Part shown: one piece after another, positions 37,135 through 42,002 of the stretch
Layout of the letters: every line of letters begins with the position of its first letter
How positions within the stretch are numbered: the stretch's first letter is position 1
Origin: a virus
DNA: 64,000 bases
Direction: 5' to 3' (one strand)
IMG/VR virus record: IMGVR_UViG_3300025108_004223
Span: 1-64,000 of that record
Notes under the pieces: model-generated
Seen by the model: only the letters and a program-made list of their open reading frames with translations
Database searches by the model: none
What the model was told of the DNA's origin: nothing
Made by a program: the position numbers and the translations under genes

Positions 37135-37327
37135 AGAAGTATTCCTAGTAACAATGCTAGGCAAAAACTTTATTGATTTAGATCTAGACACAGCAACAAT
37201 TGTTCCACGTGGTAATATATCTACCAGCACCGAACAATATCTTTCAGAAAAAATAAACCAGATGGTATCGGCTTATATATTTCTCGACTCAAAAGAAGCA
37301 ATGTTATTTAGAATTAAGTATACTTAA
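37085..37327 (+). CDS. Hypothetical protein
   Basis: 80 aa co-oriented ORF. Confidence 0.45.
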   Translation: MKPAVAFLRNGSTIEGREVFLVTMLGKNFIDLDLDTATIVPRGNISTSTEQYLSEKINQMVSAYIFLDSKEAMLFRIKYT

Positions 37328-37430
37328 CACCTGCACCAGTAACGATAAATACTTGTAGCAATACAAAAGAATAATACTAGGGGTATTTGTTAAGTTTTGA
37401 GTTGCACATATTAAAAAAGGAAACATTAGG

Positions 37431-37874
37431 ATGAATACTCGGTTTATGATATGGTGGCTTGCTGCCGTGATACAGATTATTGGTGTAGGAGTTGCAATAG
37501 GTTTTGGCGCAGTAGATTTTTTACTAGAAGCTGATCAGACTTATTTAAGTTTTGTAACTACAACATTATGGATTATTGGAACAATAGCAATTGGCTATAC
37601 TTCGTGGCGCAAAGATAACAATTACGACTCACCCTGGTTTATAGCAGAAAGTTGTATTAGTGTCGGAATGATCGGAACACTAATTGGATTTATGTTGATG
37701 TTAAGTAGCAGTCTTGGTAATGTAGATCCAAGCAATATGGATTCAATGAAACAAGTAATTAGTGATATGGCAAGTGGTATGAGCACAGCACTTGTAACAA
37801 CGCTTTCGGGATTAGTGTTTAGCTTATTCCTTAAGATACAGATTACAATTCAAGAACACAATATGGTAGATTAA
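37431..37874 (+). CDS. MotA/TolQ/ExbB proton-channel family membrane protein
   Basis: SVGMIGTLIGFMLML...ASGMSTALVTTLSGL, the family's TM signature. Confidence 0.78.
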   Translation: MNTRFMIWWLAAVIQIIGVGVAIGFGAVDFLLEADQTYLSFVTTTLWIIGTIAIGYTSWRKDNNYDSPWFIAESCISVGMIGTLIGFMLMLSSSLGNVDPSNMDSMKQVISDMASGMSTALVTTLSGLVFSLFLKIQITIQEHNMVD

Positions 37875-37877
37875 AAC

Positions 37878-38531
37878 ATGTCAAGAAGAAGAAGTGGCAA
37901 CCAGCTTGCATTTAACGACATGCTTTTTAACGTATTACTAGGATTTGTAGTCCTTTTCGTTATTGCATTTTTGTTAATTAACCCGATCACTAAAAAACAA
38001 GATGTGCCATCAAAAGCAGAAACTATGATCATAATGGAATGGGATGATCAAAGTTATACCGATATGGATTTATGGATTCAACGTGATGATAATAGTCCTG
38101 TAGGATTTAACAATAAATCAGGCCAAGGTATGAATTTAGAACGTGACGACTTGGGATCTACAAATGATAGATTTTATGTTGATGGACAAGTTCAAACTAT
38201 TAAAACAAACAGAGAAGTTGTAAATGTTAGAGGTATCGTTCCAGGTGATTATTATCCAAACATACACGCTTATAATTGGTCTGACCAACAACCTTTAGAA
38301 ATTACAGTAACAGTAATTGATGTTAATCCAGTTTATAGAGAAGTATATTCTGTGAAAGTGATGGTAAGTAAACGCGGTGATGTTGTAAGATTACCAGGAT
38401 TTACAATTGATGACAAAGGTCGTATTAGTAAAGTCTTTAATCATACAAAAACTGTAGTTCCAAATAGAGGTAGAACAAGCGATGCACAAGGCACAACATG
38501 GGGACAAAATAGCGGTCAAAGTAGTGAGTAG
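37878..38531 (+). CDS. MotB/ExbD-like single-TM protein with beta-sandwich domain
   Basis: AFNDMLFNVLLGFVVLF with TM Asp; DMDLWI...LERDD...EVVNV. Confidence 0.62.
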   Translation: MSRRRSGNQLAFNDMLFNVLLGFVVLFVIAFLLINPITKKQDVPSKAETMIIMEWDDQSYTDMDLWIQRDDNSPVGFNNKSGQGMNLERDDLGSTNDRFYVDGQVQTIKTNREVVNVRGIVPGDYYPNIHAYNWSDQQPLEITVTVIDVNPVYREVYSVKVMVSKRGDVVRLPGFTIDDKGRISKVFNHTKTVVPNRGRTSDAQGTTWGQNSGQSSE

Positions 38532-38532
38532 C

Positions 38533-39789
38533 ATGCAATATATTATTGATAATATAAAAAATGCAGACTCTAAAATTGTAAACGATGTAACTATACTAGA
38601 GTTTGAAAATTTTTTCCCTCCAGAACACTTAGAACAATTAATATGGGCAACAAAGCAAACACACTTAATTGATGATGCAGAACCAGTATCCGGTTTTAAA
38701 CCTAGTGCATACGGCTTTGATAAATTACTTGATAAAGAATTATTTAGAAATATCAGCAAACAGTTTAAAAGCGAAGAATTTAAAACAACATTATTAAATA
38801 AATTTCAACTACATGATGTAGAATATTGCCAAAAGCATTTAGATGTTGATATAAGCATACACACAGATCAAGGACATCAATTTGATGATGCACACTCTGA
38901 TCAAAAGAACAATTTATTTTCATTAACCTTACAAGTATATCTACCCGAAACAGATGCAGATGCTGAATACGGAACTATATTCTACGACAACAAAGGCAAT
39001 GAACTATATCTAAGAGAATTTAAAAACAATACAGGTTATTGTTTCTTATCACACAACAACAGTTGGCATGCAGGAAAGCCTGGAATTAAACGTAATAGTT
39101 TTTTTGTAAGAATGGATATAAAGCCACACTATGAATTTAGTTCAACTGTATTCAATTACGACTCTACTATAGATACATGTTATCTTATATGGGATAAAGA
39201 CATGGAAGTTCCACGTCATTACACAGACTATTTGCTACAAGTATCTATGCTAAATGCACAAGAGCTTGGCATTGAAAACGTTGTAGTTTCACAAGATCCA
39301 TGGAAAAACAAGTGTGCATTGTTACACAAACTAAAACAACTTGGCTTTAAAAAGGCGTTTGTAGTGCTAGGTGGTGTGCATTGGGATAAAACACACGCAA
39401 TAGATTTTGCACAAGAATTAGACTTAAATGTCAGTGTATGCGGTAGAACAAACTCAGACGATGCTACACACCTGCTTAGACAGTATGCAGTAATCAATAT
39501 AAATAGTGTTATAGAATTTGAAACTGAACATCCTACACACTTTCCAAATACATCAAGATACTTTGGAGAATGCGTAGACAACAAAGACTATATTGAGATA
39601 GATGATTCACTGGCAGATATACAACATTTCTATCACATGGAAGAAGATATAGATGAATGTGACACATGGACAAGTTGGATTAGATGGTCAGATACATACG
39701 AACACGCAGATATAGATTATTTACGTAGATATAAAGAAAACAATAAGTCATTGGTAGCACTGACAAAATCAATGCACAAAGGATTATAA
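38533..39789 (+). CDS. 2OG-Fe(II) oxygenase fused to an unknown C-terminal domain
   Basis: AHSD, LQVYL, GTIFY, SWHAG, RNSF. Start placed at ATG 38533. Confidence 0.65.
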   Translation: MQYIIDNIKNADSKIVNDVTILEFENFFPPEHLEQLIWATKQTHLIDDAEPVSGFKPSAYGFDKLLDKELFRNISKQFKSEEFKTTLLNKFQLHDVEYCQKHLDVDISIHTDQGHQFDDAHSDQKNNLFSLTLQVYLPETDADAEYGTIFYDNKGNELYLREFKNNTGYCFLSHNNSWHAGKPGIKRNSFFVRMDIKPHYEFSSTVFNYDSTIDTCYLIWDKDMEVPRHYTDYLLQVSMLNAQELGIENVVVSQDPWKNKCALLHKLKQLGFKKAFVVLGGVHWDKTHAIDFAQELDLNVSVCGRTNSDDATHLLRQYAVININSVIEFETEHPTHFPNTSRYFGECVDNKDYIEIDDSLADIQHFYHMEEDIDECDTWTSWIRWSDTYEHADIDYLRRYKENNKSLVALTKSMHKGL

Positions 39790-39790
39790 T

Positions 39791-40330
39791 ATGGTTTACT
39801 TAGCCGCAACATTAATTTTTATAACAAGTGTAATTACACTCTATGCTCTTATTTTAAATAAGAAGAACCCTATAGTTATGTTGTTCTTAATTCCAGCATT
39901 ACTGACATCAAGTATATATACTGGTTACTCGATTTATGTATTACAAGGAACACCTATTTCAACAGGATTGCCAACTGATACACAAGTTGAAATTGTATGG
40001 ATTGAACCTGCTAAACCAGTTATACGTTTATTACTAAGAATAGAAGGCGAGGAAACTCCTACATATTATAGTATAGATTATACAGAAAAGAATATGGAAG
40101 AATTAAACAGGGCAATGGCACAAGCAGCCGCATTAGGCAAAGAAGGTCCAGATGGTGAATTCAAAAAAAGCAACGGTGGTGAAGAATCTAATGGTGAATT
40201 CTTCTTTGTGCAAAAACCAAAATCATTTGGTCCAGCAAAAAAACAAGAAGACAATGATGATGATCCATATTCTGAAGAAAACACACTAGAACGTAATGGC
40301 ATGAGCACTGGTCATTCCGGTCAATACTAA
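39791..40330 (+). CDS. Two-TM anchored protein, likely third component of the MotAB-like module
   Basis: N-terminal TM hairpin followed by a soluble domain. Confidence 0.55.
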   Translation: MVYLAATLIFITSVITLYALILNKKNPIVMLFLIPALLTSSIYTGYSIYVLQGTPISTGLPTDTQVEIVWIEPAKPVIRLLLRIEGEETPTYYSIDYTEKNMEELNRAMAQAAALGKEGPDGEFKKSNGGEESNGEFFFVQKPKSFGPAKKQEDNDDDPYSEENTLERNGMSTGHSGQY

Positions 40331-40345
40331 AATGAAATAATACCA

Positions 40346-40373
40346 TTGACAAATATAGCAGATCTGCTATAAT
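40346..40373 (+). promoter_or_regulatory. Sigma70-type promoter with 18 bp perfect palindrome
   Basis: TTGACA-16 bp-TATAAT with TG-N extended -10. TATAGCAGATCTGCTATA at 40354-40371. Confidence 0.72.
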
Positions 40374-40402: not shown

Positions 40403-40678
40403 ATGAAAAACGTAATTAATTTTTTTAAGAAAAGCTATGCCAACGACCGCATGGCCTTTTATGCAGAAATAGTAGAAACAACGGTTCTTATTATAGCAAG
40501 TGCAGTATTAAGTTTCACAATATTAGATCCTGCTACAACAATATTCGTTCCACTTTATTTAATAGGCAGTATGTTAGCAGTTTTTAGCACATATAGACGT
40601 GGCAGCAGTGCTATTGTCTTATGTAGTTGGTTTACTGTTATGAACAGTTGGGCATTTATACAATTGTTTGTGCTATGA
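40403..40678 (+). CDS. Small three-TM membrane protein
   Basis: Three hydrophobic segments. Confidence 0.6.
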   Translation: MKNVINFFKKSYANDRMAFYAEIVETTVLIIASAVLSFTILDPATTIFVPLYLIGSMLAVFSTYRRGSSAIVLCSWFTVMNSWAFIQLFVL

Positions 40679-41151
40679 TTAAAGCAATATTGGCATGTGA
40701 TGATGCGTGGGGCATAGGTAAAGATGGAACGCTACCTTGGCCGCATAATGCCGCAGATCAAAAATGGTTTGCAGATACAACAAAAGGTGATGTTGTTGTA
40801 ATGGGTAGCACAACATGGAAAGACCCTGACATGCCCAAGCCACTACCAGGTAGATATAATGTAGTGGTAACACGTGGTGTAGCCGATGAGGCGCATTGTG
40901 TGGTTCCAATAGATAAAGCTGAAAAACTATTGGTAGAAGATTTAGAGCAAGAAGATGTTTGGATTATTGGCGGGGCTAAACTCGTAAAAGCATTGATGCC
41001 AATAATTGATGAACTATGGTTAAGTAGAATAGTAGGTGTATACGATTGTGATACACACTTACCAGAAGATGATATATTAAAAAACTACAAACTAGTTGAT
41101 GTTGATACTAGTATTAATACGTTAAGTATTGAAAAATGGAGTAAATTATGA
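40675..41151 (+). CDS. folA: Dihydrofolate reductase
   Basis: WGIGKDGTLPW, VVMGSTTW, PLPGRYNVV, WIIGGA, CDT. Confidence 0.92.
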   Translation: MIKAILACDDAWGIGKDGTLPWPHNAADQKWFADTTKGDVVVMGSTTWKDPDMPKPLPGRYNVVVTRGVADEAHCVVPIDKAEKLLVEDLEQEDVWIIGGAKLVKALMPIIDELWLSRIVGVYDCDTHLPEDDILKNYKLVDVDTSINTLSIEKWSKL

Positions 41152-42002
41152 AAACATATTTAAATGCCCTAGGACATATCCTAGCAAATGGTAAAGGCAA
41201 ACAAGACAGAACTGGAACAGGCACAAAAGGTGTGTTTGGATACCAAATGCACTTTGATTTAGAAAAAGGATTTCCTGCCGTAACAACCAAAACACTTGCA
41301 TGGAAAAGTGTTGTAAGTGAACTGTTATGGTTGTTAGAAGGTAGCACAGACGAACGTAGGCTTGCTGAGATACGCTACGGCTTACCACGTGAAGAACTAA
41401 TAGGTAAGACTACTATTTGGACGGCTAATGCAGATCAACAAGGTGTAGCACTTGGATATGAAAACACAGATACTGTTAAAGAACTAGGACCTGTATACGG
41501 CAAGCAATGGCGTGACTGTAATGGTGTAGATCAAATAGCAGAAATCATTGCACAAATTAAAGCTGACCCAGACAGCAGACGCATTATATTAGATTCATGG
41601 AACGTAAACGAAATAGACAAAATGTCACTTCCACCATGTCACACACTTGCACAATTTTATGTAGCAGATGGCAAACTAAGTTGTCAACTGTATCAACGTA
41701 GTGCAGATATGTTCTTAGGCGTTCCATTTAACATTGCAAGTTATAGTTTGCTTACACATATACTTGCAAGTATCACAGGACTAAAAGTAGGCGAGTTTGT
41801 ATGGACAGGAGGCGACTGCCATATTTACAATAACCATTTGTCACAAGTGTTACAACAGATGTCACGTAAGCCTGCTAAAGCACCTATACTAACTATGCCT
41901 GAGTTTAGTTCGTTAGAAGATGTGTTAAATAGTGGCATAGAGGATTATGCATTGGGAAACTACGCACCTCTTCCTACAATTAAAGCAGAAATGGCGGTAT
42001 AA
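41148..42002 (+). CDS. thyA: Thymidylate synthase
   Basis: LGPVYGKQWR, SRRIILDSWN, LPPCH, QRSADMFLGVPFNIASY. Confidence 0.97.
   Translation: MKTYLNALGHILANGKGKQDRTGTGTKGVFGYQMHFDLEKGFPAVTTKTLAWKSVVSELLWLLEGSTDERRLAEIRYGLPREELIGKTTIWTANADQQGVALGYENTDTVKELGPVYGKQWRDCNGVDQIAEIIAQIKADPDSRRIILDSWNVNEIDKMSLPPCHTLAQFYVADGKLSCQLYQRSADMFLGVPFNIASYSLLTHILASITGLKVGEFVWTGGDCHIYNNHLSQVLQQMSRKPAKAPILTMPEFSSLEDVLNSGIEDYALGNYAPLPTIKAEMAV

What the first reader, a model, noticed from the sequence alone, without database searches (positions are those of the whole stretch)
37431..40330. Phage-encoded MotA/MotB (TolQR/ExbBD/ZorAB-like) membrane module
Seen: a MotA/ExbB-family channel subunit, a single-TM partner with the conserved TM Asp but a beta-sandwich instead of an OmpA domain, and a third TM-anchored protein. 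A TAAATAC motif lies upstream at 37346. Known: such 5:2 complexes are ion-driven rotary motors in flagella, Ton/Tol and Zorya defence. Inference: the phage uses one to alter the proton-motive force, jam host Ton/Tol or Zorya, exclude superinfection, or energise an envelope step.
Basis: partly seen in the sequence, partly recalled or inferred. Interest (0 to 1): 0.7.

Follow-up and report, generated by a model that had tools for sequence, protein, structure and literature searches.

The report
Phage copy of unnamed mini ion-motor cassette
A marine jumbo phage carries a stripped-down, three-protein relative of the proton-driven motors behind flagella and the Ton/Tol systems; the same unnamed cassette sits in hundreds of phages and about one in eight Alphaproteobacteria sampled, and its job is unknown.

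Summary
Window 37431-40330 is a tightly packed four-gene unit.

- **A** (147 aa) is a 4-TM MotA/ExbB-family protein with no cytoplasmic domain.
- **B** (217 aa) has one TM helix with an invariant Asp, then a TerD-like beta-sandwich.
- **D** (179 aa) is a 2-TM hairpin plus a small periplasmic domain.

A-B-D is a conserved cassette, not a phage oddity. It occurs in that order in 78-80 of 80 viral loci examined, and 465 IMG/VR stretches encode B relatives. It is in four Rhizobium/Sinorhizobium phage lineages and in ordinary chromosomal settings of Alphaproteobacteria (54 of 401 sampled genomes). No other gene is consistently linked to it.

Many bacterial copies of A carry a roughly 90-aa cytoplasmic insert. 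All phage copies examined lack it. In one phage lineage D is fused to a GH24 lysozyme, which puts its output end in the periplasm beside peptidoglycan.

It is not an ordinary exbBD, motAB or zorAB: B and D match no Pfam, NCBIfam, PADLOC or PHROGs model. The most likely reading is a proton-driven 5:2-type motor working in the periplasm. What it acts on is not established. The TAAATAC motif is present but not enriched. This scan has already met the cassette on other DNA; I found no paper describing it.

The parts
37346..37352 (+). It lies inside a weak sigma-70-like match at 37324-37353 (TTAACA-18-AATACT, 9 of 12).
   Evidence: Present but not enriched: 20 copies in the window against 23 expected. 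There is no evidence that it is a promoter.
37431..37874 (+). Gene A: a minimal MotA/ExbB/TolQ-family channel subunit, 147 aa. It has four predicted TM helices, a roughly 10-residue cytoplasmic loop and no cytoplasmic domain.
   Evidence: Pfam PF01618 at E 1.1e-7, above the cut-off. PADLOC ZorA2 at 2.2e-9. NCBIfam ZorA_2 and PomA match locally, far below their cut-offs. hhalign puts T83 and T124 on ExbB T148/T181 and TolQ T145/T178. T83 is kept in 135 of 135 distinct sequences and T124 in 134 of 135. Hydropathy suggests four TM helices.
37878..38531 (+). Gene B: the Asp-bearing 'axle' subunit, 217 aa. It has an N-in TM helix with Asp14 and then a periplasmic TerD-like beta-sandwich with an invariant acidic cluster.
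   Evidence: It starts 3 nt after the stop of A. Asp14 is kept in 123 of 123 distinct sequences; D62 and D64 in 123; D90 and D91 in 121; D97 in 120; E113 in 122; W55 in 123. The AlphaFold model has mean pLDDT 77, with the sandwich at about 90. VIA-align gives Z 9.0 and 8.5 to the TerD structures 2qz7 and 2kxt, with the next hit at 6.7. No family model matches.
38533..39789 (+). Gene C: an orphan 418-aa ORF inserted between B and D. The start at 38533 is preferred by comparison with L005; an alternative ATG at 38482 overlaps B. It is weakly oxygenase-like.
   Evidence: Only the close relative L005 shares it, at 76% identity. Pfam 2OG-FeII_Oxy_3 gives E 0.023, below the cut-off, and only for the long form. 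The 418-aa form has no hit. There is no match in the PDB or in isolated phages. dN/dS is 0.23. It is not part of the conserved cassette.
39791..40330 (+). Gene D: the third cassette subunit, 179 aa. It has a 2-TM helical hairpin, a small periplasmic beta-beta-beta-alpha-beta domain and a disordered acidic tail.
   Evidence: It starts 1 nt after the stop of C. Homologues follow B directly in nearly all loci. The model shows helices 2-23 and 27-51, strands and a helix at 64-124, and a tail below pLDDT 55. G53 and P55 are near-invariant. In L151/L152 it is fused to Pfam Phage_lysozyme (E 3e-49).
40346..40373 (+). Perfect sigma-70 consensus promoter (TTGACA-16-TATAAT with an upstream TG). It marks the start of the next transcription unit, so it sets the 3' boundary of the module.
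   Evidence: 12 of 12 consensus matches. It lies 16 nt after the stop of D and upstream of the 91-aa ORF, DHFR and ThyA.

Best explanation
The locus is this phage's copy of an unnamed three-component member of the MotA/ExbB '5:2' ion-motor superfamily.

Shown:
- A keeps the two-helix channel core with the conserved Thr pair.
- B keeps an invariant Asp in its single TM helix and sits directly downstream of A.
- D always follows B.
- All four genes, including the insert C, are under purifying selection.
- Phages and alphaproteobacterial chromosomes share the trio.

Inferred:
- Five A subunits surround two B helices. Proton flow through B Asp14 and the A Thr83/Thr124 ring turns or ratchets B against A.
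- The phage form of A has no cytoplasmic domain, so the work can only go outward.
- The routes outward are B's TerD-like, probably Ca2+-binding, beta-sandwich and D. D would ride on the motor by its TM hairpin, much as TonB and TolA do.
- The most likely working site is the peptidoglycan and periplasmic layer, because one phage lineage has a GH24 muramidase fused to the periplasmic end of D.
- The phage probably supplies the infected cell with this envelope-working motor from an early or middle transcription unit. Whether that serves wall remodelling, release of progeny or keeping rivals out is not established.

Gene C is a lineage-specific passenger at the B|D junction.
For: Family membership of A:
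- Pfam MotA_ExbB above the cut-off.
- Thr83 and Thr124 align to ExbB T148/T181 and TolQ T145/T178. They are kept in 135 of 135 and 134 of 135 distinct sequences.

B as the axle:
- Its start is 3 nt after the stop of A.
- It has a single N-terminal helix with positive charges before it.
- Asp14 is kept in 123 of 123 distinct sequences.

The trio:
- A-B-D is in that order in Rhizobium phages, marine viral contigs and bacterial chromosomes.
- Only these three genes are universally linked.

Output faces the periplasm:
- The cytoplasmic loop of A is about 10 residues. Many bacterial copies have a roughly 90-aa insert there.
- D is fused at its C-terminus to Phage_lysozyme in L151/L152.

B's ectodomain:
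- It is a TerD-like sandwich, Z 9.0 and 8.5.
- Its acidic cluster is near-invariant.

Functional and old in phages:
- dN/dS is 0.09-0.34.
- 465 viral stretches encode B relatives.
- Phage rows fall in at least 4 places in the B tree.

Precedent: B-type subunits with other periplasmic domains (transpore helix plus vWA) have been described (PMC12204202).
Against:
- B shows no detectable sequence similarity to ExbD, TolR or MotB beyond the Asp-bearing helix.
- The TerD match is fold-level only. Pfam TerD finds nothing in the record, and Z of about 9 is only modestly above background.
- The lysozyme fusion was seen in just 2 near-identical loci of 80, and in no isolated phage. The peptidoglycan link is therefore thin.
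- In the marine viral loci examined here, the cassette's commonest neighbours were replication and auxiliary genes, not lysis genes.
- D's soluble domain has no informative fold match.
Confidence: 0.55

Rival explanations
1. Defence or superinfection-exclusion device. In bacteria the A-B-D cassette would be an anti-phage system, a Zorya-like envelope sensor. Phages would carry it to keep competing phages out of the infected or lysogenised cell.
For: - The best local matches of A in curated libraries are ZorA models (PADLOC ZorA2 at 2.2e-9; NCBIfam ZorA_2 at 7.7e-6).
- The distribution is patchy: 30 of 101 genomes in one order and 54 of 401 in the class.
- Soil genomes carry 3-4 paralogues.
- Phage and host lineages have exchanged it repeatedly.
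- It is carried by the temperate phage 16-3.
- It lies in an early-type region of this phage.
Against: - There is no ZorA tail, and no ZorC/D/E-type or other effector. Only three small membrane proteins are conserved.
- B and D match nothing in PADLOC.
- The bacterial copies examined lie among ordinary metabolic genes, not in defence islands.
- A cassette with no nuclease, protease or other cytoplasmic effector would need an envelope-level mechanism.
Confidence: 0.2
2. Controlled proton leak or proton-motive-force sensor. The stripped-down A/B channel would mainly conduct protons. That would tune membrane potential for host takeover or set lysis timing. In some phages D would act as a membrane tether for a SAR-like lysozyme, released when the potential falls.
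For: - A is reduced to the bare channel core with no output domain in the cytoplasm.
- The D-lysozyme fusion resembles a membrane-tethered endolysin. Its lysozyme half is 55-60% identical to real endolysins.
Against: - The large periplasmic domain of B has many near-invariant residues. D is retained in nearly all loci examined. Both are hard to explain for a mere leak.
- The chromosomal copies in free-living bacteria have no lysis context.
- The marine viral loci examined here showed no holin or spanin genes among the commonest neighbours.
Confidence: 0.1
3. Jammer of host motors. The mini-A or B subunits would mix into host TolQR, ExbBD, MotAB or ZorAB complexes and poison them. This covers the first reader's 'jam Ton/Tol or Zorya' option.
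For: - A shares the conserved channel helices with all of these families.
- A truncated subunit is the classic form of a dominant-negative.
Against: - The same short or long cassette is a stable chromosomal operon in bacteria. That is not expected of a poison.
- B and D co-evolve with A as a self-contained trio.
- Identity to host-type ExbB/TolQ is confined to about 47 aligned residues.
Confidence: 0.05
4. Passenger. The cassette would be a host operon picked up by the phage with no role in infection.
For: - Homologues exist in likely host-type bacteria, the marine Alphaproteobacteria.
- The B|D junction tolerates inserted genes.
Against: - Purifying selection acts in the phage lineage (dN/dS 0.09-0.34).
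- 465 viral stretches encode B relatives.
- All phage copies examined share the derived short-A form.
- The window's clade sits on a long branch of its own rather than inside a host clade.
Confidence: 0.05

Closest known systems
ExbB-ExbD-TonB and TolQ-TolR-TolA (Ton and Tol-Pal proton-driven transducers, 5:2 motors plus a third membrane-anchored protein)
   Same: - Three-gene logic: a channel subunit, an Asp-bearing single-TM subunit encoded directly downstream, and a third inner-membrane-anchored protein that reaches into the periplasm.
- The channel helices of A align to ExbB 143-189 and TolQ 140-186, including both ring threonines.
- Output goes to the periplasm rather than the cytoplasm.
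   Different: - A has four TM helices and, in phages, no cytoplasmic domain. ExbB and TolQ have three TM helices and a large cytoplasmic domain.
- B has no ExbD/TolR domain. It has a TerD-like beta-sandwich instead.
- D has two TM helices, no His-bearing SHLS-type helix, no proline-rich spacer and no TonB_C/TolA domain.
MotAB / PomAB flagellar stator units (PDB 8gqy, 6ykm)
   Same: - Four-TM topology of the A subunit.
- The best, though weak, PDB sequence match of the A profile is MotA 8gqy (E 0.16).
- There is an Asp near the cytoplasmic end of the B helix.
   Different: - There is no cytoplasmic torque-generating domain in A.
- B has no plug or OmpA-like peptidoglycan-binding domain.
- A third obligatory subunit, D, is present.
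ZorAB of Zorya anti-phage systems
   Same: - The best local hits of A in PADLOC and NCBIfam are ZorA models.
- The N-terminal TM core is compact, with TM2-TM4 close together.
   Different: - There is no long ZorA C-terminal tail. A is 147 aa against 400-700 aa.
- Scores are far below the family cut-offs (25 bits against 100-700).
- B has no peptidoglycan-binding domain, and there are no ZorC/D/E/F/G partners.
Transpore-helix vWA proteins paired with TolQ-like pentamers (Williams-Jones et al. 2025, PMC12204202)
   Same: This is a precedent for a TolQ/MotA-like channel whose Asp-bearing axle subunit carries an unrelated periplasmic domain in place of the TolR/ExbD/OmpA module.
   Different: - The periplasmic domain there is a vWA fold. 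Here it is a TerD/DUF2135-like beta-sandwich.
- That system has no D-type 2-TM partner and was not reported from phages.
Viral motA/motB 'auxiliary metabolic genes' (Zhong et al. 2021, PMC8290583)
   Same: MotA-family genes were reported on viral contigs, including 70 Global Ocean Virome contigs. Some of those Pfam-level hits may be this cassette.
   Different: - That paper describes a canonical MotA/MotB pair with the peptidoglycan-binding motif and reads it as flagellar.
- It does not describe the minimal A, the beta-sandwich B or the third subunit.

Membership tests
MotA/TolQ/ExbB proton channel family (Pfam PF01618), gene A | Profile match above the curated cut-off | tested here: met
   E 1.1e-7, 32.1 bits against a cut-off of 22.9, residues 72-134. 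The same holds in the whole-record scan.
MotA/TolQ/ExbB proton channel family (Pfam PF01618), gene A | Conserved polar (Thr) ring residues on the last two TM helices, facing the B-subunit Asp | tested here: met
   hhalign places T83 on ExbB T148 and TolQ T145, and T124 on ExbB T181 and TolQ T178. They are kept in 135 of 135 and 134 of 135 distinct sequences. Whether they face the Asp was not tested.
MotA/TolQ/ExbB proton channel family (Pfam PF01618), gene A | Cytoplasmic domain between the N-terminal TM helix or helices and the channel hairpin | tested here: not met
   The loop is about 10 residues in the window and in all 78 phage copies found in 80 viral loci. A roughly 90-aa insert is present in many bacterial copies of the same cassette.
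5:2 ion-driven rotary motors (as a mechanism) | A5B2 assembly with ion-dependent rotation | not testable with these tools
   No multimer prediction or experiment was available. It is inferred from homology of A, gene order and the invariant Asp.
ExbD/TolR (Pfam PF02472), gene B | ExbD/TolR profile match and periplasmic alpha/beta domain | tested here: not met
   There is no Pfam hit at E up to 10 for 22 family members. The six-frame scan of the record finds none. hhalign to E. coli TolR and ExbD gives probabilities of 0.1-0.2%. The predicted ectodomain is an all-beta sandwich.
ExbD/TolR/MotB-type axle subunit (functional class), gene B | Single N-in TM helix with a conserved Asp near its cytoplasmic end, encoded directly after the A gene | tested here: met
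   The helix spans residues 8-34 and is preceded by RRR. Asp14 is kept in 123 of 123 sequences. The gap between A and B is 3 nt.
MotB/ZorB/PomB | C-terminal OmpA-like peptidoglycan-binding domain | tested here: not met
   Pfam OmpA is not found in B or anywhere in the held 126.8 kb of the record.
Zorya (ZorAB plus ZorC/D/E/F/G) | ZorA with a long C-terminal tail; dedicated cytoplasmic effector genes next to zorAB | tested here: not met
   A ends 11 residues after TM4. PADLOC matches cover only the TM core. NCBIfam scores are 11-25 bits against cut-offs of 100-700. No further conserved neighbour exists.
TonB/TolA force transducers, gene D | Single TM helix with an SHLS/His motif, a proline-rich or helical spacer, and a TonB_C/TolA C-terminal domain | tested here: not met
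   D has two TM helices, with no His in either in the window copy. It then has a small beta-beta-beta-alpha-beta domain and a disordered acidic tail. There is no Pfam hit. It may still play an analogous role.
TerD domain (Pfam PF02342), ectodomain of B | TerD profile match; Ca2+-binding beta-sandwich | tested here: inconclusive
   There is no profile match in the record. The two TerD structures are nevertheless the top fold matches: Z 9.0 (134 residues aligned, rmsd 4.2) and Z 8.5, with the next hit at 6.7. Foldseek also ranks 2qz7 first (E 3e-3). The near-invariant acidic cluster fits metal binding, but metal binding was not tested.
DUF2135 / YfaP (Pfam PF09906), ectodomain of B | Profile similarity to the YfaP beta module | tested here: inconclusive
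   hhalign of the B profile against E. coli YfaP gives probability 23% and E 8.7e-4 over 85 columns, with a shared W..D.DL pattern and a G.Y pattern. Atlas neighbours are automatically named YfaP-like. There is no direct Pfam hit.

The most novel reading that the evidence does not exclude
A-B-D would be a further functional class of 5:2 ion motors, alongside Mot/Pom, Ton/Tol, Gld/Agl and Zor. Its phage form would be the smallest natural version: a bare membrane rotor with no cytoplasmic part. It would couple proton flow to a metal-binding periplasmic beta-sandwich and to a 2-TM partner that works on the cell wall. Phages would have taken it repeatedly from Alphaproteobacteria and trimmed it, to control the host wall or envelope during infection.
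Probability: 0.35. Interest if true: 0.8.

Novelty: new variant of a known kind. Interest (0 to 1): 0.66.

Why it matters
Only a few output types of the 5:2 ion-motor superfamily are understood: flagellar torque, Ton/Tol force transduction, gliding and type IX secretion, and Zorya defence.

This cassette is abundant:
- 2,062 clusters of B at 50% identity.
- About 13% of sampled Alphaproteobacteria.
- At least 465 viral contigs.

It has two subunit families absent from the four family libraries searched (Pfam, NCBIfam, PADLOC, PHROGs), and I found no paper on it.

The phage form lacks every cytoplasmic element. That makes it a natural minimal system for asking what the membrane core of such a motor can do alone. 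It is small enough (147 + 217 + 179 aa) for structure determination and reconstitution.

For phage biology, it would be a membrane machine that phages bring in and that acts on the host envelope from inside. Genetically tractable models already exist: Sinorhizobium phage 16-3 and the Rhizobium phages.

Tried and rejected
Searches that found nothing:
- DNA-level search of the region against isolated phages: no match.
- tblastn of A against isolated phages: no match. B does hit 29 Rhizobium/Sinorhizobium phages.
- PHROGs: no family for any of seven local proteins.
- PDB profile search with B: nothing at E up to 10.
- Fold searches with D: only generic helical hairpins and small barrels, nothing usable.
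- Pfam TerD, ExbD and OmpA scans of the phage record: no match.
- Search for longer, fused relatives of D: none among 379-2000-aa proteins. This is weak evidence, because fusions of 300-378 aa fall outside that range. The lysozyme fusion was instead found by scanning viral loci.
- Gene C: no PDB, isolated-phage or convincing Pfam relative. Atlas scores were below 0.8.
- Literature: five completed full-text searches found no description of this cassette.

Ideas rejected:
- TAAATAC as a promoter signal. It is not enriched.
- Lysis cassette. The neighbours in 80 viral loci are an SbmA/BacA-like gene, IscA, clamp loader, ClpP and RNase H.
- 'Ordinary exbBD capture' (see the membership tests).

- Taxon names were withheld for genomes reached through loci. 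'Alphaproteobacteria' rests on the record titles and on the class of the genome that holds L064.


Full report
**What is there**

The window comes from an IMG/VR virus record of 126.8 kb that CheckV rates 35% complete, so it is probably a jumbo phage. Between 37431 and 40330 lie four co-oriented genes separated by gaps of 1-3 nt:
- A, 37431-37874, 147 aa.
- B, 37878-38531, 217 aa.
- C, 418 aa from the ATG at 38533. This start matches the relative L005. An upstream ATG at 38482 would overlap B.
- D, 39791-40330, 179 aa.

A 103-nt spacer precedes A. A perfect sigma-70 consensus promoter (TTGACA-16-TATAAT with TG) at 40346-40373 follows D and opens the next unit: a 91-aa membrane ORF, then DHFR and ThyA. 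Upstream lie a clamp-loader-like gene and two unknown genes.

It is no commoner in the window than in shuffled sequence (20 copies against 23 expected).

**The three cassette proteins**

*A.* It matches Pfam MotA_ExbB above the curated cut-off (E 1.1e-7). It also matches ZorA and PomA models locally, far below their cut-offs.
- It has four hydrophobic segments, and only about 10 residues separate the second from the third. It is therefore the membrane core of a MotA-type subunit with no cytoplasmic domain.
- Profile comparison aligns its last two helices with ExbB 143-189 and TolQ 140-186. Thr83 and Thr124 fall on the ring threonines (ExbB T148/T181).
- Over 135 distinct family members, Thr83 is invariant and Thr124 is kept in 134.

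*B.* It has RRR, then a helix at residues 8-34 bearing Asp14, then a beta-sandwich at residues 47-187.
- Asp14 is present in 123 of 123 distinct sequences.
- B matches no model in Pfam, NCBIfam, PADLOC or PHROGs. It does not align to E. coli TolR or ExbD.
- Its sandwich is closest to the two TerD structures (VIA-align Z 9.0 and 8.5, next hit 6.7). Foldseek also ranks 2qz7 first.
- A weak profile link to the YfaP/DUF2135 module exists (probability 23%; Atlas naming).
- A cluster of acidic residues is near-invariant: D62, D64, D90, D91, D97 and E113. That fits a metal site of the TerD type. This last point is inference.

*D.* It is a two-helix hairpin, followed by a small beta-beta-beta-alpha-beta domain and a disordered acidic tail. 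It has no informative fold match.

**The cassette is conserved and not confined to phages**

- B hits 29 Rhizobium and Sinorhizobium phages of four kinds. In RHph_N3_19 and RHph_N34 the gene upstream of B is a mini MotA_ExbB protein and the gene downstream is a D homologue. In phage 16-3, A was recognised only by tblastn and the local profile search, and small ORFs separate the three genes.
- A scan of IMG/VR with the B profile found 465 stretches. In the 80 loci kept, B was found in 80 and A and D in 78 each, in the order A-B-D. A was always short, 143-178 aa.
- A scan of one genome per prokaryote species found 57 bacterial loci. One is the complete chromosome of a SAR116-type 'Candidatus Levibacter'. 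There the trio sits between a TctABC transporter, gamma-glutamyltranspeptidase, a luciferase-like oxygenase and aminobenzoate or anthranilate synthase genes, so it is not in a prophage.
- B is found in 30 of 101 sampled genomes of that order and in 54 of 401 of its class. Large soil genomes hold 3-4 paralogues.
- In an exhaustive profile search, B has 2,062 clusters at 50% identity with E up to 1e-3. Nearly all of the 150 listed are about 200 aa.
- All-against-all comparison of neighbours shows that only A, B and D travel together, in bacteria and in phages alike.

**Phage copies are trimmed versions**

Many bacterial copies of A are 250-290 aa. They carry a roughly 90-residue cytoplasmic insert between TM2 and TM3 and a C-terminal tail. 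All phage copies examined lack these, as do the SAR116 copies.

In a maximum-likelihood tree of B, phage sequences fall in at least four places that well-supported branches force apart:
- The window and L005 form their own long branch.
- Marine phages form a second clade.
- Two Rhizobium phages sit next to long-A bacterial clades.
- Phage 16-3 sits inside the most divergent long-A clade.

The cassette has therefore moved between phages and Alphaproteobacteria several times. The loss of the cytoplasmic insert goes with phage carriage. The tree is unrooted, so I do not assert directions of transfer.

**Evidence about function**

- Against L005, dN/dS is 0.09 for A, 0.13 for B, 0.23 for C and 0.34 for D. 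All four genes are maintained.
- A has nothing in the cytoplasm. B (positive-inside N-terminus) and D (Lys/Arg in the hairpin loop) both put their soluble parts in the periplasm.
- Earlier notes of this scan mentioned a lysozyme fusion, and I tested that lead. In viral loci L151/L152 the D homologue continues into a full Pfam Phage_lysozyme domain (E 3e-49, residues 166-289). Its closest relatives are bona fide endolysins.
- That fusion supports the periplasmic placement of D's C-terminus and ties D to the peptidoglycan layer. It was found in only 2 near-identical loci of 80, and in no isolated phage.
- The commonest neighbours in marine viral loci are an SbmA/BacA-like transporter, IscA, a clamp loader, ClpP and RNase H. 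The cassette does not sit in lysis modules there.

**Most likely mechanism**

By homology and anatomy this is a proton-driven 5:2-type motor. Its work is delivered in the periplasm through B's sandwich and D, and D plays a TonB/TolA-like third-partner role.

This much is shown:
- A belongs to the family.
- The catalytic-type residues are invariant.
- The three genes are linked.
- The output topology is supported indirectly.

This much is inferred:
- The stoichiometry.
- Ion flow and rotation.
- Docking of D on the motor.
- The target.

I put 0.55 on this general reading and much less on any particular target. Peptidoglycan or wall work is the leading guess.

The rivals are a defence or exclusion device (0.2), a proton leak or sensor tied to lysis (0.1), a jammer of host motors (0.05) and a passenger (0.05).

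**Gene C**

C is shared only with L005 and has no convincing relatives. Another phage lineage (L121) has a different gene inserted at the same B|D junction. That gene is Ring_hydroxyl_A-like (E 9e-5, below the cut-off). The junction therefore accepts cargo, and C is not part of the motor.

**Comparison with what is known**

- The trio works like Ton/Tol in logic. It fails their membership tests for B and D, and it lacks the cytoplasmic domain of ExbB/TolQ.
- It has the four-TM topology of MotA/PomA/ZorA, but no torque domain, no ZorA tail, no OmpA domain and no Zorya partners.
- The nearest published idea is the TolQ-like motors whose Asp-bearing helix carries a vWA domain (PMC12204202).
- Viral 'motA/motB' genes have been reported as flagellar auxiliary genes (PMC8290583). 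That paper does not describe this architecture.
- Five completed full-text searches found nothing on the cassette itself.
- This scan has met the cassette repeatedly on other DNA, and earlier follow-ups reached the same general reading. My evidence here was gathered independently, apart from the lysozyme lead, which I then tested.

**Verdict**

This is a new variant of a known kind of machine. It is abundant and unnamed, and genetically tractable phage models exist for testing it. Interest 0.66.

Noticed in passing
window 38533-39789; L121:4641-5723: The junction between genes B and D holds an inserted cargo gene in two separate phage lineages. Here it is the orphan, weakly 2OG-oxygenase-like ORF C. 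In L121 it is a 360-aa Ring_hydroxyl_A-like protein (E 9e-5, below the cut-off). Both inserts look oxygenase-like.
   Followed up: partly
window 40346-40373: A perfect sigma-70 consensus promoter (TTGACA, 16 nt, TG, TATAAT) lies directly after gene D. It heads a unit with a 91-aa two-TM ORF (40403-40678), DHFR (40627-41151) and ThyA (41148-42002). This suggests host-polymerase early transcription of the nucleotide-metabolism block.
   Followed up: no
viral loci, e.g. L128:6424-7509: An SbmA/BacA-like inner-membrane transporter gene (Pfam SbmA_BacA, E 3e-76) lies 1-2 kb downstream of the cassette in 19 of the 80 marine viral loci examined. It is not in this window.
   Followed up: partly
L001:6668-7390 (RHph_N3_19) and L003:1588-2583 (phage 16-3 p036): A membrane-anchored or periplasmic trypsin-like serine protease is annotated within about 2.5 kb of the cassette in two unrelated Rhizobium/Sinorhizobium phage lineages. 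It is on opposite sides of the cassette in the two.
   Followed up: no
L035, L039, L041-L045, L047-L050, L053, L054, L056, L057, L060, L062, L063, L065, L067, L069: In many SAR116 single-cell and metagenome assemblies the contig ends roughly 50-150 bp upstream of gene A. That suggests a repeat or a hypervariable stretch beside the cassette in that clade. In the complete genome (L064) a DUF1127 gene and a ChrR-cupin gene lie there.
   Followed up: no
L030, L032, L036, L038, L068: Nearly identical B sequences occur in metagenome bins labelled Cryomorphaceae, Rhodobacterales, Planktomarina, Marisalimonas and SAR116. Either the bins are mislabelled or this version of the cassette moved very recently.
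   Followed up: no
L016, L017: Two contigs filed under bacterial metagenome bins (Methylophilaceae, Legionellales) fall inside the marine phage clade of the B tree. L016 also has large downstream ORFs that looked phage-structural by eye, which was not checked. Both look like mis-binned phage DNA.
   Followed up: partly
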